The position numbers and the translations under genes were made by a program. Source: a virus. Taken from it: a DNA stretch of 64,000 nt. The notes under the pieces are model-generated. The model had not been told where the DNA came from, ran no database searches, and saw only the letters and a list, made by a program, of their open reading frames with translations. Below, in pieces: positions 9,038 through 54,018 of the stretch; position 1 is the stretch's first letter; each line of letters begins with the position of its first letter. Location: IMG/VR virus record IMGVR_UViG_3300025840_000011; one strand, given 5' to 3'.

Positions 9038-11644
9038 ATGGCACGCCCTATTACACTCATAACAGATACGTTTAAGGTACTTAGAGATAACATCAATACT
9101 ATCTCTAATAACGTTGGCGATCCGGATCTTCTAACCACAACGACGAGAGCGTTCACTCTAGGAAACACTGGGGTCGCGCAAAGATCAGACTCTTCTGATG
9201 TTGTTAGTGCGTTAAACGAACTCGACTCTGACCTTCACGGTGCAGGCGGTGGTGATGTAAAGAATGATCTGAACTACATCTCCTACGCAATCAATCGTGT
9301 CCGTGATAGTGGTATGACGGGTGCAATGAACGCTATCGATGCATATATCGGTGGTGACTCAGATACTCTAAATGTTGAAGCGAACACGATCAAAGATGCG
9401 ATCAACGAGATCGAAGCGGTCTTTGACGCAAGTACACTCAAGATTAATGCGGGAGGTGACTTCCGATTTGATGGTGCGGGTGACCTAGAGGTTAACTTAG
9501 ATGGAGGGGATGTTACCTTCCTCAGTGACTCCGATCAGTACGCACATTTTAATCTTAGAGACAGTGCCGCCGATTTTGTACAAACATACACCCACAGTCT
9601 CAGGATTAGAACTGCGGACTCTGCGGCCGGTAACGTATACTTAGATGCGGGGGGAGACATTACTCTCGACGCAGACGGAGGTAACGTATATCTTAAGGAC
9701 GGTGGTGCAACGCATTTTGACTACTCTCTGGGTTCAACCAACACGGTAACAGTAACCGGAAACTTGACACATGATGTTTCTGGTGATATAGTACTGGACG
9801 CCGGTACTCTTAACATAGATTTCTTAGGGGCGGGGACAACACGTTTCGCCTATGGTCTTGGTGCATCTAACACACTAGATGTCACAGGTAATCTTTCCGA
9901 AGTGGTTTCAGGAACCTACACAGAGAGTGCGGGTGGAAACTATCATGTCGGAAACACTGGGACATACGAAGTAGTACCTACCGGAAACGCTACTGTGGAT
10001 GCGGGTGGAGATATCATCCTTGACGCAGATGGTGGTAACGTCACACTCAAAGATGACGATAGTGCGGCATTTGATTTCAGTCTCGTAGACGGTATTGTCT
10101 CTAGAACTGGTCACACTACACTTGATGTTTCTGGTAACATTACTCTTGACGCTGATGGTGGTAACACCTACATCAAAGACGGCGGTACTACTCAGTTCCA
10201 GTTCATTGCGGGAACCAACAAAGAGATTGACGTTCCGGCTGGCAACTTGACAGTTGACGTTGCGGGTGATATAGTACTCGACGCAGACGGCGGAGACATC
10301 GACTTTAAAGATAATGGAACTGCAAGGTTCTCTTATGGTCTAGGTGCAACGAATACACTTGAGGTTAACGGTAATCTGACTCAGACAGTATCGGGTAACG
10401 TAATCGATAGTGCTAATGGGACATATACTGTAACTTCTACAGACGATATGTCACATACTACTCTTGGTAGATACACTCTATCAGCAGATAGTGCTGTTAT
10501 TATAACATCTGATTCTGCAATTGTCAATAGTGCCATTGGTTTTGCTGTAAACACAACTAACGGTTATATTGATCTTAATGCTTCTGGTGCATACGGAACA
10601 GTAAGAGTTGATGCCGATCATGCTATTGTCCTTGATGCTGACGATGGTGACATCTATATTAATGATGGAGGAATCACTGCTTACCACATTATGTCATCTG
10701 GTACAATTTCTCGTGACGGAGACTTGACACTAGACATTTCTGGTGATATAACACTAGATGCAGATGGCGGAGACGTATTCCTCAAAGACGGTGGAACTCA
10801 GTACGGTGCGTTAACCAACACATCCGGTAACCTCATCGTCAAGTCCGGTACGACTACTGCACTGACATTCTCTGGTGCGAACGTTACTACGGGTGGCAAC
10901 ATCACGGTAGGTGGGAACACCATTAGTAGAACAGGTGCATTGACACTAGATGTTTCTAGTGGTATTAGTCTTGACGCTGGTACTGGTATCGTATACCTGA
11001 AAGACAATGGTATCACTTACGGATCGTTAAGAAATCCTGCCGGTGCAAAAACCCTTGACATCTATAGTAATACGACCAAGGCAATCGGGATCGATAGTTC
11101 TTCGAACGTCACGATTACCGGAACGGTCACTGAGGGTACTACACTTGGCACAACATCAACTCACTTGGGTGGTGCGATCAACGAAATCCACACTGAGTTG
11201 GATTCCGCTACTACTGATCTTCAGACAACCAAGGGTAGGGTAACTAATCTCGAATCTCAGATGGATTCTAATGAGGGAATCATTGGTGTCTCAGTAGAAT
11301 GGAATGCGGACAATACCTACAGTTGGATTCACTCAACGTCTAACAGGGCCGCAATCAACGATCTCGACTCTGCGATTGGACATCTTGCAGACTTAGACAA
11401 TACCACTTTCGCTGGTGCAAATGATAAAGACAATGTTGTGACTGCATTGAACGTACTTGCGGGTGACGTGCAAGACGTTCAGGGTGATGCGGGAACACTA
11501 GATAGTAGAATCGGTTCACTTGCAAACCTGGCCGCCTTCTTCGATAGTGCGGGGGCGACATCAAGTATTGTAAACGCCCTAAATCACATGGCAAGTAGAG
11601 TGGTCAATGTGTATGACGAAAATGGCACTCTGTTAAACACTTAA
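9038..11644 (+). CDS. Tail fibre-like protein with D(A/V/I)xGDIxLDADGG repeats
   Basis: About 9 GDIxLDA(D)GG-like repeats; AINE/ALNE coiled segments; Gly/Asp/Thr-rich. Confidence 0.7.
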   Translation: MARPITLITDTFKVLRDNINTISNNVGDPDLLTTTTRAFTLGNTGVAQRSDSSDVVSALNELDSDLHGAGGGDVKNDLNYISYAINRVRDSGMTGAMNAIDAYIGGDSDTLNVEANTIKDAINEIEAVFDASTLKINAGGDFRFDGAGDLEVNLDGGDVTFLSDSDQYAHFNLRDSAADFVQTYTHSLRIRTADSAAGNVYLDAGGDITLDADGGNVYLKDGGATHFDYSLGSTNTVTVTGNLTHDVSGDIVLDAGTLNIDFLGAGTTRFAYGLGASNTLDVTGNLSEVVSGTYTESAGGNYHVGNTGTYEVVPTGNATVDAGGDIILDADGGNVTLKDDDSAAFDFSLVDGIVSRTGHTTLDVSGNITLDADGGNTYIKDGGTTQFQFIAGTNKEIDVPAGNLTVDVAGDIVLDADGGDIDFKDNGTARFSYGLGATNTLEVNGNLTQTVSGNVIDSANGTYTVTSTDDMSHTTLGRYTLSADSAVIITSDSAIVNSAIGFAVNTTNGYIDLNASGAYGTVRVDADHAIVLDADDGDIYINDGGITAYHIMSSGTISRDGDLTLDISGDITLDADGGDVFLKDGGTQYGALTNTSGNLIVKSGTTTALTFSGANVTTGGNITVGGNTISRTGALTLDVSSGISLDAGTGIVYLKDNGITYGSLRNPAGAKTLDIYSNTTKAIGIDSSSNVTITGTVTEGTTLGTTSTHLGGAINEIHTELDSATTDLQTTKGRVTNLESQMDSNEGIIGVSVEWNADNTYSWIHSTSNRAAINDLDSAIGHLADLDNTTFAGANDKDNVVTALNVLAGDVQDVQGDAGTLDSRIGSLANLAAFFDSAGATSSIVNALNHMASRVVNVYDENGTLLNT

Positions 11645-11661: not shown

Positions 11662-14256
11662 ATGCCAATTGCGAAGAGTAAGCCATTAAAACTCAACAGT
11701 CCCGATCAAGGCGATCTAAAGAGACTTAGTAGTACAGAAGAAAATTACCTATCATATCTGATTGGGCAACACTTCTGTGCGGATAGTGATGGCGACAATG
11801 AGATTGGAAATCTAACACTTACTAGTACTAATGCAAACACCGTAGGTTCGTTTGTTGATACCCTCATAAACGAACCAAGTGGAACGCATCCAACTTCTGC
11901 AATTACGTCAACATCAACTACGACTACTCTGTACCAAAAATACGGTACAGCGGACGAGACTGATTCCGACTTCACAAAACCTATTGCATACTACAACCCT
12001 CTCACAGACGGTAGTACCGATCTTGGTGCGGAAGGTGTTTATGAGATGGCGGATTCTGACATGAATCGTTTAGTCGATAGACTAAATGGTCGAATCGCGT
12101 TGTCCGATTATCTTGGATCTTTTAAACTCAGTAATAGTACGACATCGCCTGGGGCAGGATATGTCAAATTCATAGAAGACGTTTTTACAGATAATATCGA
12201 AGTCGATACGAATACTACAGACAATTTTTCTATCTGGAGAAGAGAGAGTCAGACTGCACCTTCGTCTATTACAGACAGTGATGGTAACACAACACTCCTA
12301 TCCTGCATAAACAGAGACAGTGGTGGTAACTACCTCGGCATTGGTGTGATGTCGGATCGTGCGATAAAAGTTTCTCTTGGACAACGTGCAAAGACTAGAC
12401 GTTCTGCTTCTGATGGGATTGGTTCATATGTTTTGAGATCAAGTTCTCAGGGTGCACCTTCTGGTAGTGGTAGTTGGAGAGCAGTGGGTTCTGCGACAAA
12501 CCGTAGAAGAGACCTAATTCAAACTTCGTATACTCGTACCAGAAACTCCACGTATACCAGAGACAGACAGTCAACCTATGCGGGAATTTATAACAGAACT
12601 AGAGTATCGAATTACACTAGGAATAGAACGTCCACATATTCTAGAAATTTCGTAGGCGACTTTGTTGCGACTTATCAAGGCAACTACATTGCAAACTTTA
12701 TAGGTAACTATTCTCGTGGTTTCGTAGGTAATTACTCACGTAATTTTGCGGGTAACTATATTGGAGACTTTATTGGTAACTATCAAAGAGGGTTTGTCGG
12801 TAACTATACCGGAGACTTTACTGGTAACTACGCCCGTAACTTTCTTACGGGGTATTCCCGAAACTTCACTCGTGATAGGACATCAAATCAGACCGCTGTA
12901 AGAACGCAGACTCGTACCTCTTCATATTCTAGAACTTTCTCTAGGGTAAGAAGTTCAGCGTATACCAGAACGAGGACTTCTTATTACTCAAGAAATAGTG
13001 TTGCAAATAGAAACTCTCAGTACAACAGAACCTCTACACGTACTAGGTATGAATACTACTCTCGTTCTTTTGCGGGTAACTACGCACGTGCGTATACCAG
13101 AGATCGTCAACAAACTAGACACTCGACTTATAATAGAACCTTTATAGGTAACTATTCCCGTAACTATACACGGTTCTTTACTGGAGACTACACAAGAAAC
13201 TCTTTTTATAACAGAACGGCATATTACAATCGGTTTCGTCCGAATCCAAACTGGGATCCTTGGAATGCAGCTCAAGGCCCCATATATTACTTAGGAGTCT
13301 ACTCCCGAAATATCGCAACGGAAGGGCCTCTGTCATATAGTAGATCGTTTACCGGAAACTATTCAGGTAATGCACCGAACTACAGTAGAACTATTGTTTC
13401 GATTGGTCCACCTTGGCAGTGGAACTGGATTGCGGGCGAGTTCCCATCAGTCTATACTAGAACTTCACAATATACAGCGGCTTTCCAAAGAGTTCGTGTA
13501 GAAACTTATAACGCGAATTTTACCAGAAACCGAACCTCGAATTACGCAAGAGCGTTTACGAGAGATCGGATCTCATCGTATGCAAGACTTTTTGTCGCCA
13601 ACTATATTGGAAACTATCAGCGAGTATTTACAAGAAGTCGGTCCTCAAATTTCTCACGTAATTTTGGGGGGAACTTTATAGGTGACTATGCGAGAACTTT
13701 CATAGGTGACTTCACTGGTAATTACTCACGTGATTTTGGGGGTAATTACTCACGTAACTTTACACGAAACAGGAATTCTGCATACAGTAGAAATTTCATT
13801 GGTAACTACACTGGGGACTTCTTAGCGAATTATATTGGTAATTACGCACGTAACTACTTTAGAGTAACACGGACATCTACATATACTAGAAACTCAACTA
13901 GAGATTCTCAGAGAACTATAGGTAGTGATTACACTCGAAATTCTACAAGAGACTCGACTAGAGTAAGATCAAGTACTTACACTAGAACTCGAAGTTCTAC
14001 GTATACTAGAGACAGTACCGTTGGTCCTTATACAAGAAACAGGAACTCAAATTTCACGGCAACTAGAACGTCCTCATATTCTAGAGATTTCATAGGCGAT
14101 TATACTAGAGGATTTTTAGGAGATTATATTGGCGATTATGCAAGAGGGTTTATTGGAAATTACTCTCGAACCTTCACTGGTAACTACACAGGTGAGACTG
14201 TCGGCAGTTCAACGGAACTTATCGAAACGTATACCTTGTATGTTAAATATGCATAA
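11662..14256 (+). CDS. Mirror-repeat (predicted giant beta-hairpin) fibre protein A
   Basis: Globular N-domain paralogous to 14278; YxRx/RxSx/FxGx tetrapeptide repeats at 12529-14196. Confidence 0.75.
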   Translation: MPIAKSKPLKLNSPDQGDLKRLSSTEENYLSYLIGQHFCADSDGDNEIGNLTLTSTNANTVGSFVDTLINEPSGTHPTSAITSTSTTTTLYQKYGTADETDSDFTKPIAYYNPLTDGSTDLGAEGVYEMADSDMNRLVDRLNGRIALSDYLGSFKLSNSTTSPGAGYVKFIEDVFTDNIEVDTNTTDNFSIWRRESQTAPSSITDSDGNTTLLSCINRDSGGNYLGIGVMSDRAIKVSLGQRAKTRRSASDGIGSYVLRSSSQGAPSGSGSWRAVGSATNRRRDLIQTSYTRTRNSTYTRDRQSTYAGIYNRTRVSNYTRNRTSTYSRNFVGDFVATYQGNYIANFIGNYSRGFVGNYSRNFAGNYIGDFIGNYQRGFVGNYTGDFTGNYARNFLTGYSRNFTRDRTSNQTAVRTQTRTSSYSRTFSRVRSSAYTRTRTSYYSRNSVANRNSQYNRTSTRTRYEYYSRSFAGNYARAYTRDRQQTRHSTYNRTFIGNYSRNYTRFFTGDYTRNSFYNRTAYYNRFRPNPNWDPWNAAQGPIYYLGVYSRNIATEGPLSYSRSFTGNYSGNAPNYSRTIVSIGPPWQWNWIAGEFPSVYTRTSQYTAAFQRVRVETYNANFTRNRTSNYARAFTRDRISSYARLFVANYIGNYQRVFTRSRSSNFSRNFGGNFIGDYARTFIGDFTGNYSRDFGGNYSRNFTRNRNSAYSRNFIGNYTGDFLANYIGNYARNYFRVTRTSTYTRNSTRDSQRTIGSDYTRNSTRDSTRVRSSTYTRTRSSTYTRDSTVGPYTRNRNSNFTATRTSSYSRDFIGDYTRGFLGDYIGDYARGFIGNYSRTFTGNYTGETVGSSTELIETYTLYVKYA
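12529..14196 (+). repeat. Tetrapeptide repeat array with 56 mirrored units per arm
   Basis: Manual parse: arm 1 is 12529-13200, arm 2 is 13519-14196. Confidence 0.85.
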
Positions 14257-14277
14257 ATACTCACAACAGGAGTAAAT

Positions 14278-17200
14278 ATGTCATCTAACATACCATTGAA
14301 ATTAGAGGGAACCGCAGGCGATCTGCAAGAGATGACCTCTGGTGAGGAGAACTACATCTCTTATATCGTCGGTAAGGATAACCTTGCCGCGACTACTGGT
14401 GTGTCGGATTTAACTCTAACATCTACTGGTAACACCTCTATTGGATCGTTCGTTAACACCTTCTACAACGAAGCGGTGGGAACTCACCCAGCGTCTTCAA
14501 TTACTTCGGGGTCAACGACTACAACAGTATATCAGGTTGCGGGAACAGAATCTCCGGACACTGGTAGTCTTCGTCCCATAGGTTACGCAACAGATGGCGG
14601 TTCCACTCCTAGTTTTTATGAGATGCCTGATTCTGATCTGAACGTTCTTGCGCGTCGAGTAAACTCACGTATTGCAACTTCGGACTATCCGGGCATCTAC
14701 AAGTTAGCGACTGCCGCACCTAGTGGTGACTATGCAGTAAAAGTTTCTAACGTATTTACGGATACACAGACAGACGGTACTACAACACAATATAACATCT
14801 ATCAAAGAACCGCAATGACCGCACCCACCACAGTCAGACCCGTTGGTCTTAGTGGTGGCGATCTTAAAGAGATGGCGGACAGTGACATCTCAGACTTGAT
14901 AGGATCTTTTGTGCGTACACTTCGTGCAACGTCTGGAGAAATAGGATCATACCAACTGAGATCCTCATCACAAGGTGCACCAACAGATGCGGGTACTTGG
15001 ACTTCGGTAGGAACTGCAACAGATACGAAGAAAAATATTGTTGAAACAAACTACACCCGAAACAGGAATTCTGCATACAGTAGGACTCGAAGTTCGAACT
15101 ATACACGGACACGGGGTTCTACGTATACTCGCACGTCTCTTAGAAGCCGTGTCTCGAATTACGCTGGTGATTATGTTGGTAATTATACCAGAAACTTTAT
15201 TGGTGATTACACCCGCGATTATCTGGGTAATTATATTGGCGACTTTATCGGGAACTACTCTCGCACCAGAGTATCAACATACTCTCGAACCAGAATAACA
15301 GACTACGCCGGTAACTTTATTGGTAACTACTCCAGAACTAGAGTATCCAATTATACAAGGGATAGTCAAAGGACTTCGGTTCGCACCAGAGTCTCTGCGT
15401 ACTCCAGAACCAGACCTTCTACTTACCAAAGGGATAGAGTGACCAACTTTGTCGGTGACTTTATTGGTAACTACACTCGCAATAGAATATCCAACTACAC
15501 AAGAACTCGTGTGTCATCTTACGCTGGGGACTATGTTGGTAACTACGCACGTAACTTCCTTGGTAACTATAACAGAAATTTCTTGGGTAACTATCAGAGA
15601 AGTTTTGCCGGTGATTACGTAGGTAACTATACTAGAAACTCAACTAGAGATTCTCAGAGAACCAGAACTTCTACCTACACTCGAACGAGTACACGTACAA
15701 GACTTTCAACATATACTCGAACGAGTACACGTACAAGAAGTTCAGCGTACACACGAAACAGTACCAGAAACCGTGTATCTAACTATCTGGGTAACTACAA
15801 CAGAAACTTCGCTGGTAATTACGTAGGTAACTATAACAGAAGTTTTGTGGGTAACTACGTAGGTAACTTCCTTGGTAACTACGTGGGTGATTTTGTTGGA
15901 GACTATACTCGACAAGGTGCATACGCTCGCGCATATGCGGGTGACTATCTGGGTAATGTCAACTACGTAGGTAACTACGCAGGAACCGTAAACTATCAAC
16001 GTACTCGTGCAACCAATTATCAGAGGACTAGTACTGCGCCTCTTGATTATACTCGTGCACGTCCCGCAACTTTAGATTATACACGTACTCGTGCAACCAA
16101 CTACGCAAGAACTGTAGCATACACTCGTGCACGTCCTGCAACTTTAGATTATACAAGGACCAGTACACGTACAAGTACTGCAACTGGTAACTATACTAGG
16201 AACCGTGTAGCTACACTGGACTACACCAGAGATCGTCAGCAAAACTATGCACGTACTTTGTATTACACTAGAACCAGTACTGGATCGGCCTCATATACCA
16301 GAAACAGAGTTGGTTCACAAGGATACAGTAGAACACTTAACTACACACGTGATGTCTACTATTACAGATCGACTCCGGCTCCGTATGGTTCGGTGTATGG
16401 TAGAACCCAAAACTTCTCTCGTACACTTACGTACTACAGAAACGCAACGTTCACCGGAAACTACAGTCGTAACCTCAGTTATACGGGTGACTATTTCCGT
16501 CTCGTATACTACTTGGCGAACTTCGTAGGTAACTACACTCGTAACGCTACATATACCGGAGATTATACTCGTACATTCAGTTACGCTGGTAACTTTACAG
16601 GTAACTACACTCGTAGCGTAACCTATACTGGTAACTACGCTCGTACCATAAACTATACGGGTGACTTCGTTGGTAACTACACTCGTAACGTAACCTATAC
16701 TGGTAACTATTTAAGAACCGGATCATATTTGGGTGACTACGTTGGCAACTTCGTGGGTGACTATGTTAATGAAAATGCGGTTGCCTATGCGGGAGACTAC
16801 ATCAACGAAAACGTAAATTACGTTGGTAACTATGCACGAAACTTCTATCGAACACTCAACTATCAACGTACCCGTGTAACCGACTATCAACGTACCCGTG
16901 CAACTGATTACACACGTACTCGCGTGTCTGCTTACAGTAGAACAAGTACCCGAACCAGAGTATCCGCTTATTCTCAAAACTACGCAAGGACTTTCGTAGG
17001 GGACTTCACTGGTAACTATGCGAGAAACTTCGCCGGTGACTATGTGGGTAACTACTCAAGAGGTTTCGCTGGTGACTATGTGGGTAACTATGCACGTAAC
17101 TTCCTTGGTAACTATACTGGGGACTTTATTGGCAACTACACAAGAACTTCTTTGAGGACTCGTTATTCACAATATACAAGAACTCGCGTATCGTCCTATA

Positions 17201-17784
17201 CTAGAAACAGATCGTCAACCTACGCAAGAACCTCTACACGTACTAGTAACAGAGATTTCATTGGTGACTACACTCGTGGGTTCCTTGGTAATTACACACG
17301 GAACAGCGTCAATACCTTTGCGGGTAACTTTATAGGTGACTACGCCAGAAACTTTATTGGTAACTATACACGCAACTTCGAAGGTAACTACCTTGGTAAC
17401 TATGTCGGAGACTATACACGTGACTTCGTGGGTAACTACTCAAGAGACAGAGTAACTATATTCACGGGTGACTTTATCGGTAACTATGCGAGAAACTTCA
17501 TTGGAGAGTATTCAAGAAACTCAACCAGAGATTCGCAGAGAACCAGAACCTCAGCGTTTACTAGAACCCGAAATTCTGCGTACACTCGTACATCAACAAG
17601 AACAAGTACACAAACCTTCGCTGGAGATTACGTGGGTAACTACGCACGTGACTTCATTGGAGACTACAGTCGTGGGTTCATTGGAAACTATCAAAGAACT
17701 TTCGTTGGTAACTACACAGGTACAACCATCGATTCCGGTTCGTCCACAATCCAAACATACACGTTATATGTGAGATCCGCTTGA
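14278..17784 (+). CDS. Mirror-repeat (predicted giant beta-hairpin) fibre protein B
   Basis: Paralog of 11662 (PLKL...EENY(L/I)SY, GTHP, EM.DSD, Y.LRSSSQGAP, C-terminal TYTLYV). Confidence 0.75.
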   Translation: MSSNIPLKLEGTAGDLQEMTSGEENYISYIVGKDNLAATTGVSDLTLTSTGNTSIGSFVNTFYNEAVGTHPASSITSGSTTTTVYQVAGTESPDTGSLRPIGYATDGGSTPSFYEMPDSDLNVLARRVNSRIATSDYPGIYKLATAAPSGDYAVKVSNVFTDTQTDGTTTQYNIYQRTAMTAPTTVRPVGLSGGDLKEMADSDISDLIGSFVRTLRATSGEIGSYQLRSSSQGAPTDAGTWTSVGTATDTKKNIVETNYTRNRNSAYSRTRSSNYTRTRGSTYTRTSLRSRVSNYAGDYVGNYTRNFIGDYTRDYLGNYIGDFIGNYSRTRVSTYSRTRITDYAGNFIGNYSRTRVSNYTRDSQRTSVRTRVSAYSRTRPSTYQRDRVTNFVGDFIGNYTRNRISNYTRTRVSSYAGDYVGNYARNFLGNYNRNFLGNYQRSFAGDYVGNYTRNSTRDSQRTRTSTYTRTSTRTRLSTYTRTSTRTRSSAYTRNSTRNRVSNYLGNYNRNFAGNYVGNYNRSFVGNYVGNFLGNYVGDFVGDYTRQGAYARAYAGDYLGNVNYVGNYAGTVNYQRTRATNYQRTSTAPLDYTRARPATLDYTRTRATNYARTVAYTRARPATLDYTRTSTRTSTATGNYTRNRVATLDYTRDRQQNYARTLYYTRTSTGSASYTRNRVGSQGYSRTLNYTRDVYYYRSTPAPYGSVYGRTQNFSRTLTYYRNATFTGNYSRNLSYTGDYFRLVYYLANFVGNYTRNATYTGDYTRTFSYAGNFTGNYTRSVTYTGNYARTINYTGDFVGNYTRNVTYTGNYLRTGSYLGDYVGNFVGDYVNENAVAYAGDYINENVNYVGNYARNFYRTLNYQRTRVTDYQRTRATDYTRTRVSAYSRTSTRTRVSAYSQNYARTFVGDFTGNYARNFAGDYVGNYSRGFAGDYVGNYARNFLGNYTGDFIGNYTRTSLRTRYSQYTRTRVSSYTRNRSSTYARTSTRTSNRDFIGDYTRGFLGNYTRNSVNTFAGNFIGDYARNFIGNYTRNFEGNYLGNYVGDYTRDFVGNYSRDRVTIFTGDFIGNYARNFIGEYSRNSTRDSQRTRTSAFTRTRNSAYTRTSTRTSTQTFAGDYVGNYARDFIGDYSRGFIGNYQRTFVGNYTGTTIDSGSSTIQTYTLYVRSA
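15052..17724 (+). repeat. Tetrapeptide repeat array mirrored about TPAPYGSV (16372-16395)
   Basis: Arm 1 is 440 aa and arm 2 is 443 aa; the 2-residue stutters are mirrored. Confidence 0.9.
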
Positions 17785-17853: not shown

Positions 17854-18321
17854 ATGAGTTATAGGAAATGGCTTGACAACGCCTTCTGGGAAACCAGTGA
17901 AAAAGAAATGTTAAACTGCATCCTTGAGATGGAGGATGATGTTGGTCGAGTAACTCGACAAGTAATGAAGTTAAAAAAGACTGACTCCGAAGGAAACGAG
18001 AATCCGGACTTCGTTGAGGTTGTTGAATTCTTGGGTCAAGAACTCATTGACGAGAACACCGAAGAACGCAACGTTCGCAAGAAGAGAGAATCTGAAGAAG
18101 AGAAACAACGACAACTTGAACACGCTAAGGCGAGAAAGTTGGAAGAACTCTTCAACTACAAGTTGGAAGCCTTTGAGGTTCCGGAGATCAAAGACTCTAA
18201 AAACCGTCCTCTAAAATCTAAACTTCGTCGGGCAAAGAATAAGGTCGAAGTGAACCTATATGCAATTATGATCCTGATGGATGAACTCAAGAAGGCGGAA
18301 GAGAGTGACGGAGAAGAGTAG
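17854..18321 (+). CDS. Hypothetical protein (possible fibre assembly chaperone)
   Basis: AGGAG RBS; charged helical protein directly after the fibre genes; function is inferred only. Confidence 0.6.
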   Translation: MSYRKWLDNAFWETSEKEMLNCILEMEDDVGRVTRQVMKLKKTDSEGNENPDFVEVVEFLGQELIDENTEERNVRKKRESEEEKQRQLEHAKARKLEELFNYKLEAFEVPEIKDSKNRPLKSKLRRAKNKVEVNLYAIMILMDELKKAEESDGEE

Positions 18322-19039
18322 AGGTTTTGTAATTGTCGCATCTAAGAAAATTAATTTCTATAGGTACGCAATCAATCTGGCAGAGTCTATCCTTGACTAT
18401 TACGAGGATGCGAAGATCACACTCTTTTGTGAAGAGTGGATGTTCGAAGAGATCCATCGTGAAATCTTTGATCAAGTAATCTGGTGTTCCGATCACTATC
18501 GTGCAAAGTTATGGGGTATGGCGAAAACCCCATATGATCAAACGATGTACCTTGATGCGGATATGGAAGTCGAACATGAAGACATCCTAACCTGTTGGGA
18601 CGAATTCGATAAGGGTGATGTAGTATTCTCCAAACTCACCGAAGAAAGAAGTTACACCTATGCAGAGTGGGAGTTCGACACACCGGAAGGAAAGACAGCG
18701 TTTACTTTGTGTGGTGGTATATGTCTCTATGATATGACCGTCCCTCTGGTAAAAGAATTCATGGATGACTGGTGGGATTTGACAAGGCGTCAAATGGATC
18801 ATGAATGGTGGCCAAAAGGATACGCTGAGTCTCTTCGTTCTTGGGATCAGTTCTCACTCTGGTGGTTGACCACCAAAGAAGAGAAGTACAAGGACTTGAA
18901 GATCGGTGTCTTTGAAGACGATGTTCGTTGGAATTATTATAACGCATGGAACTGGGCAAGGACAAAACCCGAATCGGGTAAACCAGTAATCATTAGACAT
19001 TACTCATGCGGTCTTGATAAGGATGGATATATTTTATGA
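18305..19039 (+). CDS. GT-A fold glycosyltransferase (GT8-like)
   Basis: KLWGMAKTPYDQTMYLDAD (DxD), GG and DQFSLW motifs, C-terminal IIRHY; likely GTG start at 18305 (ORF track gives 18281). Confidence 0.7.
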   Translation: MTEKSRGFVIVASKKINFYRYAINLAESILDYYEDAKITLFCEEWMFEEIHREIFDQVIWCSDHYRAKLWGMAKTPYDQTMYLDADMEVEHEDILTCWDEFDKGDVVFSKLTEERSYTYAEWEFDTPEGKTAFTLCGGICLYDMTVPLVKEFMDDWWDLTRRQMDHEWWPKGYAESLRSWDQFSLWWLTTKEEKYKDLKIGVFEDDVRWNYYNAWNWARTKPESGKPVIIRHYSCGLDKDGYIL

Positions 19040-19743
19040 TGACAGACATACCTCTCCGGAACTCTGAGTTCCTAGAGATGTTGGAAAACTGTAGAAAACT
19101 GTTAACCGATGACGTAGAGGGTTTTCAAAAAAATCTTAGATATCACTGTGAGTCCGAACTTGATGACACCGAAGGTCAACGAGAGAAGTGGACCAGCGAA
19201 GATTATCTCAAGTATGTGGTTGAGGTTGAAGGTGATAAACATGAAGGGTTTCCTGATCACCTAGTTGGGTATGGTTTCAAACCACACCAACCAGATCAAA
19301 ATGTCAAGTTGTTCAAACCTGGCCACGATCCAGTGTGGACTAATGAGTTCATCACTAAACTCTACGCGCACAATACAGATCTGGTAAATTTTCTTGGTGC
19401 AAAGAACAATGCGTTGTTCTGTTACTATCCGCCAGGCGGGTACATCTCATGGCATAACAATTGGAATGCGTCTGCATACAATTTGATATGTTCTTGGTCT
19501 GAGACTGGAGATGGGTGGTTCAAGTATCTTGATCCCAAAACAAGAGAGATAGTAACCATTCCGGACGAATCTGGTTGGCAGATCAAGGCCGGATACTTTG
19601 GTGGTCAACACGAAAAGGATAGGGTGTGTTATCATGCAGCGTCTACGGACTGTTGGAGGTTAACGGTATCCTTTATCTGGAACCACATGGAGAACTCACA
19701 AAACCTTCAGGACGATCTGTTATACGAAATTAGTTCTGAATAA
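19036..19743 (+). CDS. 2OG-Fe(II) oxygenase-like (DSBH) protein
   Basis: YYPPGGYISWHNN...YHAA...RLTVSF; H-x-N replaces H-x-D. Confidence 0.6.
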   Translation: MMTDIPLRNSEFLEMLENCRKLLTDDVEGFQKNLRYHCESELDDTEGQREKWTSEDYLKYVVEVEGDKHEGFPDHLVGYGFKPHQPDQNVKLFKPGHDPVWTNEFITKLYAHNTDLVNFLGAKNNALFCYYPPGGYISWHNNWNASAYNLICSWSETGDGWFKYLDPKTREIVTIPDESGWQIKAGYFGGQHEKDRVCYHAASTDCWRLTVSFIWNHMENSQNLQDDLLYEISSE

Positions 19744-19747
19744 TCCG

Positions 19748-19810
19748 ATTTCCAGTTTCCCGTTTATATAAATAAAAACATAGTATTCATCTAGGTTGGA
19801 AACTGGGAAT
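19748..19810 (+). promoter_or_regulatory. Late promoter (19767-19774) flanked by a 13-bp inverted repeat that sequesters the RBS/start of 19809
   Basis: atttccagtttcc / ggaaactgggaat with one G-U pair. Confidence 0.7.
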
Positions 19811-20168
19811 GGCACACTACGAAGATATTATAATTGATCAGGGTGCAGACGTTGCAATCGAGTTAAATTTGGTGGAACAAGATGGTTCCAAAAAGAATTT
19901 GACTGGGTACAGCGCTGCCGCCAAATTGAAACGAAATTACAACTCTACAGATAGTGCAGACGTTATCGACTTCACATCTGTAATTGCAGATCCCGCAACT
20001 GACGGGGTTCTCATACTTTCCCTCACCAATAGTCAAACCGATGCATTGAGTTCTCGTGGTAGATATGTCTATGACGTAGAAATCTCGCATCAAGACTCCA
20101 ATTCCAACACACTTATAGAAAGAGTACTACAAGGTAAAATATCAGTTTCACCATCTGTTACAAGGTAA
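19809..20168 (+). CDS. Conserved virion protein (BppU-like Ig-type adaptor)
   Basis: IDQGAD...LTGY...GRYVYDVEI...RVLQGKI.VSPSVT pattern common in marine T4-like phages. Confidence 0.65.
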   Translation: MAHYEDIIIDQGADVAIELNLVEQDGSKKNLTGYSAAAKLKRNYNSTDSADVIDFTSVIADPATDGVLILSLTNSQTDALSSRGRYVYDVEISHQDSNSNTLIERVLQGKISVSPSVTR

Positions 20169-53941: not shown

Positions 53942-54018
53942 GGGATCGTAGCTCAACTGGATAGAGCGACGGCCTTCTAAGCCGTAGGTTAAAGGTTCGA
54001 GTCCTTTCGGTCCCGCCA
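53942..54018 (+). tRNA. tRNA-Arg(UCU)
   Basis: GGGATCG/CGGTCCC acceptor stem, ACGGC-CTTCTAA-GCCGT anticodon arm, GGTTCGAGTCC T-arm, encoded CCA. Confidence 0.95.

What the first reader, a model, noticed from the sequence alone, without database searches (positions are those of the whole stretch)
12529..14196. Second paralog follows the same mirror code, is half as long and has a two-loop Trp-rich tip
Seen: 56 units in arm 1 (12529-13200) pair with 56 in arm 2 (13519-14196) by the same rule (RNST/FTGN, RQST/FIGN, FVGD/RTSS, even FVAT/FTAT), with two 1-residue bulges. The unit order differs from paralog B, so each gene maintains its complementarity independently. The 106-aa centre has two aromatic/Pro loops (RPNPNWDPWNAAQGPIYY and IVSIGPPWQWNWIAGEFP). 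Inference: a ~75 nm needle with receptor-binding or membrane-inserting tips.
Basis: partly seen in the sequence, partly recalled or inferred. Interest (0 to 1): 0.85.

Follow-up and report, generated by a model that had tools for sequence, protein, structure and literature searches.

The report
Self-pairing fold-back phage fibre protein
A gene of an uncultured marine T4-like phage encodes a protein whose two 224-residue repeat arms match each other in reverse order under a simple residue rule, so the chain most likely runs out, turns at a unique Trp/Pro-rich tip and zips back on itself as a very long thin beta ribbon, a design I found in no described protein family.

Summary
ORF 11662-14256 (864 aa) has an N-domain, arm 1 (aa 290-513, 56 four-residue units), a 106-aa centre, arm 2 (aa 620-845, 56 units plus two one-residue bulges) and a conserved C-terminal strand. 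Read in mirror order, Gly-type units face Arg/Ser-type units and YxRx faces YxRx in 46 of 56 pairs. Shuffles give 17.5 +/- 3.3, and other registers give 28 or fewer.

The neighbouring paralog obeys the same rule (64 of 71) with a different unit order. Each protein fits itself and not its relatives. There is no DNA inverted repeat.

Across 82 complete family members the Gly density of the two arms is anticorrelated, and the two arms are equal in length (r = 0.94).

The best reading is a fold-back, two-stranded antiparallel beta ribbon of up to about 75 nm, carried on a base made of the N-domain plus the C-terminal strand. The unit order acts as a barcode that fixes the register. The distal tip has no detectable relative elsewhere. 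The gene lies in the baseplate/tail-fibre module.

AlphaFold modelled only the base, so the ribbon, its oligomeric state and receptor binding are all inferred.

No Pfam, PHROG, NCBIfam or PDB match was found. This scan has already met the same family on other genomes.

The parts
11662..14256 (+). Whole gene, 864-aa fold-back fibre protein (P0001)
   Evidence: Open frame with an ATG start. The exact product is found on at least 22 metagenome contigs.
11662..12528 (+). N-terminal base domain, aa 1-289
   Evidence: AlphaFold2 pLDDT of about 85-94. Conserved in 281 clusters at 50% identity. No Pfam, PHROG, NCBIfam or PDB sequence match.
12529..13200 (+). Arm 1, aa 290-513: 56 tetrapeptide units with no indel
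   Evidence: Net charge +29, no Lys, Trp or Pro.
13201..13518 (+). Centre / distal tip, aa 514-619 (106 aa)
   Evidence: Falls out of the pairing alignment. Holds 5 Trp and 9 Pro. No relative found in 5.8 billion proteins or among family tips.
13237..13290 (+). First Trp/Pro-rich stretch, aa 526-543 (RPNPNWDPWNAAQGPIYY)
   Evidence: Read from the translation. Its loop status is inferred.
13393..13446 (+). Second Trp/Pro-rich stretch, aa 578-595 (IVSIGPPWQWNWIAGEFP)
   Evidence: Read from the translation. Its loop status is inferred.
13519..14196 (+). Arm 2, aa 620-845: 56 units plus two one-residue bulges (T736 at 13867-13869, P789 at 14026-14028)
   Evidence: the register sum i+j goes 1134 -> 1133 -> 1132. 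Net charge +22.
14197..14253 (+). C-terminal strand, aa 846-864, with the family motif ETYTLYV(K/R)xA, which returns to the base domain
   Evidence: Modelled as a strand (834-862, pLDDT of about 90 at the end) beside strand 272-298. The motif ends 115-117 of 171 retrieved relatives of 404-2282 aa.
14278..17784 (+). Paralog B (P0002, 1168 aa): same code, different unit order
   Evidence: 64 of 71 unit pairs obey the rule. Self score 218 against cross scores of 94 or less. Orthologous gene pairs occur in a sister genome.
17854..20168 (+). Conserved downstream genes (155, 252, 235 and 119 aa) that accompany the hairpin genes in all four genomes examined
   Evidence: Same order in Phage C48C1, L005 and L007, at 40-81% identity. 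The 119-aa protein hits the PHROG 'L-shaped tail fiber protein assembly' at E = 1e-16. The other three have no significant family hit.

Best explanation
P0001 is a virion fibre protein built as one giant hairpin.

The N-domain and the last ~19 residues fold together into a base. In between, the chain runs out along arm 1, forms a small Trp/Pro-rich distal tip, and returns along arm 2.

The two arms pair as a two-stranded antiparallel beta ribbon of 223 residue pairs, at most about 75 nm long.

Every fourth residue is aromatic or Arg. Where one strand carries a Gly-type unit (F/Y-x-G-N/D), the other carries an Arg/Ser-type unit (R-x-S-x or S-x-R-x), and YxRx faces YxRx. This places a bulky or cationic side chain opposite a small one (Gly with Arg or Ser, Phe with Ser, Tyr with Arg).

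The irregular order of unit types acts as a barcode. It allows only one register in an otherwise highly repetitive sequence.

The base is inferred to attach to the baseplate or fibre apparatus, and the variable tip to contact the host surface.

Shown here: mirror complementarity, its uniqueness of register, co-variation between the arms across relatives, equal arm lengths, a conserved base with a variable tip, and a location in the tail module.

Inferred: beta conformation, intramolecular pairing, exact residue register, virion location and receptor binding.
For: - Mirror rule: 46 of 56 unit pairs, against 17.5 +/- 3.3 in shuffles. Only one register stands out, and parallel order does not. The same holds in paralog B, 64 of 71.
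- Pair matrix trained on this protein: it scores paralog B at 218 against cross-protein scores of 94 or less. With the same matrix, self ranks first of 162 cross comparisons in 12 of 82 complete relatives, where 0.5 is expected by chance.
- Ortholog P0006 and P0001 each fit themselves (94.5 and 249) better than each other (36.9 and 67.1).
- Independent of that matrix: the Gly density of arm 1 and of mirrored arm 2 is anticorrelated within proteins (mean r -0.26) and not between proteins (-0.05), with Mann-Whitney p = 3e-11.
- The non-repeat tip sits in the middle whatever the arm length (0-261 aa): r = 0.94, median difference 12 aa against 54 for random placement.
- No DNA inverted repeat is present.
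- AlphaFold2 places the C-terminal strand 834-862 beside strand 272-298 at high confidence. The strand ends sum to 1132-1134, the same register in which the arms pair.
- The C-terminal motif is conserved in relatives of 404-2282 aa.
- Single-residue indels are rare. Two-residue insertions occur at matched places on both arms in P0162, as expected for beta strands.
- Gene context: the gene follows gp6-, gp9/10- and gp8-like baseplate genes and the DUF4815 giant, and precedes tail-fibre-like genes and gp13-15. A tail-fibre-assembly-like gene lies nearby. This order is conserved in four genomes.
- The tip has no relative.
Against: - No structure model supports the ribbon. AlphaFold2 gave pLDDT of about 25 for the arms in the full-length run and 29.5 for the tip fragment. 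The ESM Atlas model has pLDDT 0.28.
- Neither face of the ribbon is clearly hydrophobic. Stability of a solitary 75-nm ribbon is therefore unproven.
- Many divergent relatives do not score with the matrix trained here. Their code, if they have one, uses other residues.
- There is no evidence that the protein is in the virion.
- The tip shows no population-level variation: the sequence is identical on at least 22 contigs.
- The residue register is not resolved. Position 1 facing position 3 of the unit is only slightly favoured, and by a biased test.
Confidence: 0.58

Rival explanations
1. Same fold-back chain, but three chains assemble into a six-stranded antiparallel needle like the tip of the T4 long tail fibre protein gp37. 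The mirror code would then describe one of two strand interfaces.
For: - Phage fibres are usually trimers.
- The gp37 needle is a six-stranded antiparallel beta structure made by three chains, with the receptor-binding head at its end (PMC9659904, read).
- Covariation cannot tell intra-chain from inter-chain pairing.
Against: - Only one register stands out in A and in B. Other unit shifts reach no more than 52% and behave as the two-unit periodicity predicts, so a second sequence-coded interface is not seen.
- The base is modelled confidently as a compact monomer, unlike intertwined trimeric fibre domains.
- The arms lack the His-x-His iron sites of gp37: they hold one His in total.
- There is no sequence similarity to any solved chain.
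Confidence: 0.25
2. The arms pair between molecules. Arm 1 of one chain would pair with arm 2 of another, giving swapped dimers or a mesh around the baseplate rather than solitary hairpins.
For: The mirror complementarity and covariation are equally satisfied by a swapped dimer.
Against: - The C-terminal strand docks on its own N-domain in the monomer model.
- An intramolecular partner is always at the highest local concentration.
- The arms of A and B do not fit each other: cross scores are 94 or less, against self scores of 218-249.
Confidence: 0.07
3. The tip inserts into, or perturbs, the host outer membrane rather than binding a receptor.
For: The alternating Trp motif WQWNW and a second Trp/Pro stretch lie at the distal end. 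Interfacial Trp clusters are common in membrane-active segments (my own knowledge).
Against: - There is no hydrophobic stretch long enough to span or embed.
- The outer leaflet of marine Gram-negative hosts is glycolipid, where aromatic residues more often stack on sugars (my own knowledge).
- Nothing was tested here.
Confidence: 0.07
4. The arms are a disordered Arg/Tyr/Gly/Ser low-complexity region with no stable structure, for example a sticky tether or an assembly factor. The mirror pattern would then have no structural meaning.
For: All structure predictors give very low confidence. The composition resembles Arg/Tyr 'sticker' regions (my own knowledge).
Against: Disorder does not explain any of the following:
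- the strict 4-residue period over 224 residues without an indel;
- the single mirror register;
- compensatory divergence between orthologs;
- equal arm lengths;
- the abundance of beta-branched Thr/Ile/Val.
Confidence: 0.03

Closest known systems
Needle domain of the T4 long tail fibre tip protein gp37 (Bartual et al. 2010, as summarised in PMC9659904)
   Same: The phage fibre chain runs out to a receptor-binding head and folds back, giving antiparallel beta strands. The specificity region sits at the distal turn. The gene lies in a T4-like tail module with a nearby assembly factor.
   Different: - gp37 is a trimer with six strands, roughly 70-100 residues of needle, and iron-binding His motifs. 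It is the C-terminal end of a longer fibre.
- Here the fold-back is the whole protein, with 223 residue pairs (up to about 700 in relatives), no His motifs and no sequence similarity.
- Here an explicit Gly versus Arg/Ser unit code sets the register.
- The oligomeric state is unknown.
SMC / Rad50 arms (intramolecular antiparallel coiled coil; PMC4255302 abstract)
   Same: Same topology: the N- and C-terminal parts come together as one globular module, the chain runs out tens of nanometres, carries a domain at the far end and returns. The two halves pair antiparallel within one chain.
   Different: SMC arms are alpha-helical coiled coils with heptad logic and an ATPase head. Here the period is four, the composition favours beta strands, and the base has no recognisable enzymatic fold. 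This is an analogy only, with no homology.
Stalk-and-knob of bovine ultralong CDR H3 antibodies (PMC5994613, PMC8602281)
   Same: A solvent-exposed two-stranded stalk presents a small binding module far from the body. Aromatic residues alternate along the stalk (my own knowledge).
   Different: The cow stalk has roughly a dozen residues per strand and a disulfide-rich knob. Here there are 224 residues per strand, no Cys, and a coded register. Foldseek ranked such antibodies first, but at E = 0.4, which is not significant.
Uncharacterised homolog of Phage C48C1 (OQ984149.1, WJE88074.1, 3347 aa, annotated 'hypothetical protein')
   Same: Same N-domain (43% identity), same C-terminal motif, same repeat vocabulary, and the same downstream genes.
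   Different: It is four times longer, with several self-complementary stems that appear nested (868-1295 with 1373-1798, inside 614-853 with 2128-2367) and several non-repeat domains.

Membership tests
T4 gp37-type fibre tip (needle plus head) | Sequence similarity to the gp37 C-terminal region or to any solved fibre chain | tested here: not met
   phmmer of the whole protein and of arm 1 against all PDB chains gave no relevant hit at E <= 10. There is no Pfam or PHROG family.
T4 gp37-type fibre tip (needle plus head) | The chain folds back at the distal end so that ascending and descending strands run antiparallel | tested here: met
   Shown by sequence statistics only: mirror complementarity in one register, covariation and equal arm lengths. 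No structural model exists for the arms.
T4 gp37-type fibre tip (needle plus head) | Trimer forming a six-stranded needle | not testable with these tools
   No usable oligomer model was obtained. No second coded register is seen, which is only indirect.
T4 gp37-type fibre tip (needle plus head) | His-x-His motifs that bind iron along the needle axis (my own knowledge of PDB 2XGF) | tested here: not met
   The two arms contain a single His (unit RHST) and no HxH.
Phage tail fibre / baseplate-attached fibre (functional class) | Encoded within the tail/baseplate module next to fibre assembly genes | tested here: met
   The order is gp9/10-N-like, gp8-like, DUF4815 giant, variable protein, hairpin 1, hairpin 2, three small genes, then a tail-fibre-assembly-like gene. 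It is conserved in four genomes.
Phage tail fibre / baseplate-attached fibre (functional class) | Present in the virion and needed for adsorption | not testable with these tools
   No proteome or isolate is available.
Known beta-solenoid or short-repeat families (pentapeptide, RTX, antifreeze-type repeats, collagen-like) | Match to the family profile, with contacts between successive repeats in parallel order | tested here: not met
   No Pfam hit at E <= 0.01. Parallel order scores at background (18 or fewer of 56), while mirror order scores 46 of 56.
MABP / perforin-2 P2-type beta-prism (for the base domain) | Shared fold well above background | tested here: inconclusive
   Best VIA-align Z was 6.2-7.0 over 114-124 residues. 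That is within the range the tool reports as common for unrelated models. Foldseek PDB and BFVD gave nothing at E <= 0.001.

The most novel reading that the evidence does not exclude
These proteins use a true pairing code for beta strands, the protein counterpart of nucleic-acid hybridisation. An irregular sequence of Gly-type and Arg/Ser-type tetrapeptides on one strand specifies its partner strand and its register. This lets evolution build two-stranded ribbons of any length (arms of 0 to more than 400 residues in the family) and even nested or branched stems, as the 3347-aa C48C1 protein suggests. The stems carry interchangeable tip domains. If so, this is a new class of protein architecture and a ready-made rule set for designing long, addressable beta-ribbon rods.
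Probability: 0.45. Interest if true: 0.92.

Novelty: categorically new. Interest (0 to 1): 0.8.

Why it matters
If the inferred structure is right, this is a way of building long protein rods that is not in the textbooks. It would be a single chain zipped on itself over hundreds of residues, with its register written in a simple two-letter unit code that co-evolves between the strands as an RNA stem does.

It would also give an abundant group of about 150-kb marine T4-like phages a new kind of host-recognition fibre. The length and the tip could change independently while the attachment base stays fixed.

The rule (Gly opposite Arg/Ser, aromatic opposite Arg/Ser) can be tested directly by disulfide mapping. 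It could also be reused in protein design.

The family has at least 281 clusters at 50% identity and is entirely unannotated.

Tried and rejected
- AlphaFold2 on the full protein with a 22-row family alignment modelled only the base. The arms had pLDDT of about 25.
- AlphaFold2 on the tip fragment 470-664 without an alignment gave pLDDT 29.5, which is unusable. The Atlas's own model has pLDDT 0.28.
- Complex prediction with three copies of the base domain (75-row alignment) scored 0.00. The verdict was 'no answer', so it counts neither for nor against a trimer.
- Fold searches with the full model found nothing significant:
  - Foldseek PDB gave no hit at E <= 0.001.
  - BFVD's best hit was E = 0.009 at TM 0.05.
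  - VIA-align wide gave Z <= 7 to MABP/perforin-2 P2 domains.
  - The Atlas shape search returned only unnamed viral proteins.
- I tested DNA-level inverted repeats as a source of the mirror pattern. Only four short chance pairs were found, so this is rejected.
- I looked for sub-hairpins inside the 106-aa centre (a 'forked' tip). No stem scored above 12, so this is not supported but not excluded.
- I looked for a second, offset register as a sign of a six-stranded assembly. None was found beyond the two-unit periodicity.
- The exact residue register is unresolved. Leave-one-out transfer slightly favours position 1 facing position 3 of the unit, but the alignments were made with a matrix of that register.
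- Population microdiversity of tip versus stem could not be read.
- Seven literature searches found no description of this family or design.
- The first-stage idea that the downstream genes are a glycosyltransferase and a 2OG oxygenase is not supported. Pfam gave only a faint Glycos_transf_2 hit (E = 0.11) for the 252-aa protein and nothing for the 235-aa protein.
Full report
**What is there**

The window is part of an 82-kb IMG/VR contig of an uncultured T4-like myovirus. Baseplate wedge genes, a DUF4815 giant protein, neck genes, terminase and sheath are all recognisable.

The nearest deposited genome is Phage C48C1, with 46% identity in the sheath protein. Next come Pelagibacter and Methylophilales myophages and then cyanomyoviruses. 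The host is therefore unknown.

The finding lies in ORF 11662-14256 (864 aa, P0001). It is followed after 21 bases by a paralog, ORF 14278-17784 (1168 aa, P0002).

**Check of the observation**

Arm 1 is 56 four-residue units without a single indel. Arm 2 is 56 units with two one-residue bulges, T736 and P789.

The unit has this make-up:
- Position 1 is Tyr, Phe or Arg.
- Position 3 is Arg, Gly or Ser.
- Position 4 is mostly Asn, Asp or Thr.

I sorted the units into Gly-type (xxGx), YxRx and Arg/Ser-type. In mirror order, 46 of 56 pairs obey 'Gly-type faces Arg/Ser-type, YxRx faces YxRx'. The controls were:
- Free shuffles give 17.5 +/- 3.3, maximum 33 in 200,000.
- A shuffle that keeps all YxRx positions gives 32.7 +/- 2.6, maximum 43.
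- Shifting by 1-8 units gives at most 28.
- Parallel order gives at most 18.

There is no inverted repeat in the DNA, so the pattern is not a nucleic-acid artefact.

The paralog obeys the rule in 64 of 71 units (shuffles 23.3 +/- 4.0) and has a different order of unit types.

The centre (aa 514-619) contains both quoted Trp/Pro-rich stretches. It holds 5 Trp and 9 Pro, while the arms have no Trp, one Pro and no Lys.

**Evidence that the two arms touch**

I trained a residue-pair matrix on P0001 alone.
- It scores the untouched paralog at 218, against 94 or less for any arm 1 / arm 2 combination taken from different proteins.
- Among 82 complete relatives anchored on conserved base motifs, the protein's own arm pair ranks first of 162 cross combinations in 12 cases. 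Chance would give about 0.5.
- The ortholog P0006 (62% identical in the base) and P0001 each fit themselves (94.5 and 249) better than each other (36.9 and 67.1). The unit order has therefore diverged while the two arms changed together.

Two tests do not use that matrix.
- The Gly density along arm 1 and along mirrored arm 2 is anticorrelated within proteins (mean r -0.26; 38 of 82 below -0.3) but not between proteins (mean -0.05). Mann-Whitney p = 3e-11.
- In the 28 relatives with one non-repeat segment, that segment sits in the middle whatever the arm length. Arm lengths run from 0 to 261 aa, r = 0.94, and the median difference is 12 aa against 54 for random placement.

Together these results show an antiparallel association of arm 1 with arm 2 in one register, maintained by selection.

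**The base**

AlphaFold2 with a family alignment models aa 1-289 at pLDDT of about 85-94. It lays the C-terminal strand (834-862, pLDDT of about 90 at the end) next to strand 272-298. The ends of these strands sum to 1132-1134, the same i + j at which the arms pair.

The C-terminal motif ETYTLYV(R/K)xA closes about 115 of 171 retrieved relatives. Complete members run continuously from 404 to 2282 aa, and the C48C1 homolog has 3347 aa.

So the N-domain plus the last strand is a constant module, and everything between is an excursion of variable length. This is the topology of SMC/Rad50 arms, but with strands in place of helices.

**What could not be shown**

The arms were not modelled by any predictor (pLDDT 25, 29.5 and 0.28). 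Beta conformation is therefore inferred from several indirect points:
- the period of four, with alternating faces;
- the richness in Thr, Ile, Val, Tyr and Phe;
- the rarity of odd indels;
- matched two-residue insertions on both arms in a relative.

The exact register is open. Tyr opposite Arg, Phe opposite Ser and Gly opposite Arg or Ser is slightly favoured and agrees with the base model.

The oligomeric state is also open. No second coded register is visible, and the base looks like a self-contained monomer. I take both as mild support for a solitary ribbon over a gp37-like six-stranded needle.

**Function**

In all four genomes examined the gene order is the same: gp6-like, wedge, gp9/10-N-like, gp8-like, DUF4815 giant, a variable protein, hairpin gene 1, hairpin gene 2, three small conserved genes, then a gene of about 120 aa matching a tail-fibre assembly PHROG. 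This is the place where T4-like phages keep baseplate-attached fibres.

The stem is strongly cationic, at +51 with Arg only.

The tip has no relative in 5.8 billion proteins. Tips across the family are mostly unrelated to each other, while the base is found in 281 clusters. A constant attachment end with a replaceable distal end is the usual signature of host recognition.

I therefore read P0001 as a thin adsorption fibre whose tip binds a surface structure. Membrane insertion is possible but has no support. At strain level the protein does not vary: it is identical on at least 22 contigs.

**Comparison with what is known**

There is no Pfam, PHROG, NCBIfam or PDB sequence match and no significant fold match. 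Seven literature searches found no description.

The nearest known design is the fold-back needle of T4 gp37 (PMC9659904). It is short, trimeric and held by iron-binding His motifs, none of which is found here.

The stalk-and-knob of cow antibodies and the SMC arm are analogies.

Earlier notes of this scan report the same family on other genomes, with the same reading. I treated them as leads and repeated the tests on this gene.

**Verdict**

The hairpin reading is well supported by sequence statistics. The length, stiffness, oligomeric state and tip function remain inferences.

Noticed in passing
window 53942-54018 (+), with 11662-17784: The only tRNA in the window is tRNA-Arg(TCT). The two hairpin genes are 11-12% Arg and together hold 113 AGA codons (55 and 58). 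AGA makes up 0.42-0.56 of their Arg codons, against 0.29-0.34 in the sheath, terminase and gp14-like genes. The tRNA may serve these genes.
   Followed up: partly
window 17854-19743 (+): Three small genes (155, 252 and 235 aa) follow the hairpin genes in all four genomes examined. They are better conserved than the hairpin bases: 57-81%, 53-72% and 40-52% identity, including Phage C48C1. None has a significant Pfam, PHROG or NCBIfam hit. The 252-aa protein has only a faint Glycos_transf_2 match at E = 0.11. They are candidate folding or modification factors, but their function is unknown.
   Followed up: partly
L004 112-10155 (Phage C48C1, OQ984149.1 141011-151054): The 3347-aa homolog contains several self-complementary stems that appear nested: aa 868-1295 with 1373-1798, inside 614-853 with 2128-2367, plus 285-413 with 483-613. 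Non-repeat domains lie between them, like a branched secondary structure.
   Followed up: partly
window 9038-11644 (+): The 868-aa protein just upstream is built of 'LDADGG'-type repeats, with weak PHROG hits to the beta-helix part of baseplate hub/tail lysozyme proteins and a helical C-terminal part. Its counterpart varies in size between genomes (794, 341 and 868 aa).
   Followed up: no
P0162 (476 aa) and P0040 (436 aa), metagenomic relatives: In P0162 two-residue insertions (TN and RN) sit at mirrored places on the two arms. Blocks of 11/5/4 non-Gly/Gly/non-Gly units face 12/4/5 Gly/non-Gly/Gly units. In P0040 only the outer six unit pairs obey the rule, and the inner part does not. This could be a deletion or an assembly chimera.
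   Followed up: no
L009, L010, L011 (JGI metagenome contigs of 87-152 kb): The same phage recurs almost clonally in many samples. The exact 864-aa protein is indexed in 33 blocks of the collection and on at least 22 contigs. Three contigs differ from the window by 1-6 bases over 8.6 kb, with no difference in this gene.
   Followed up: yes
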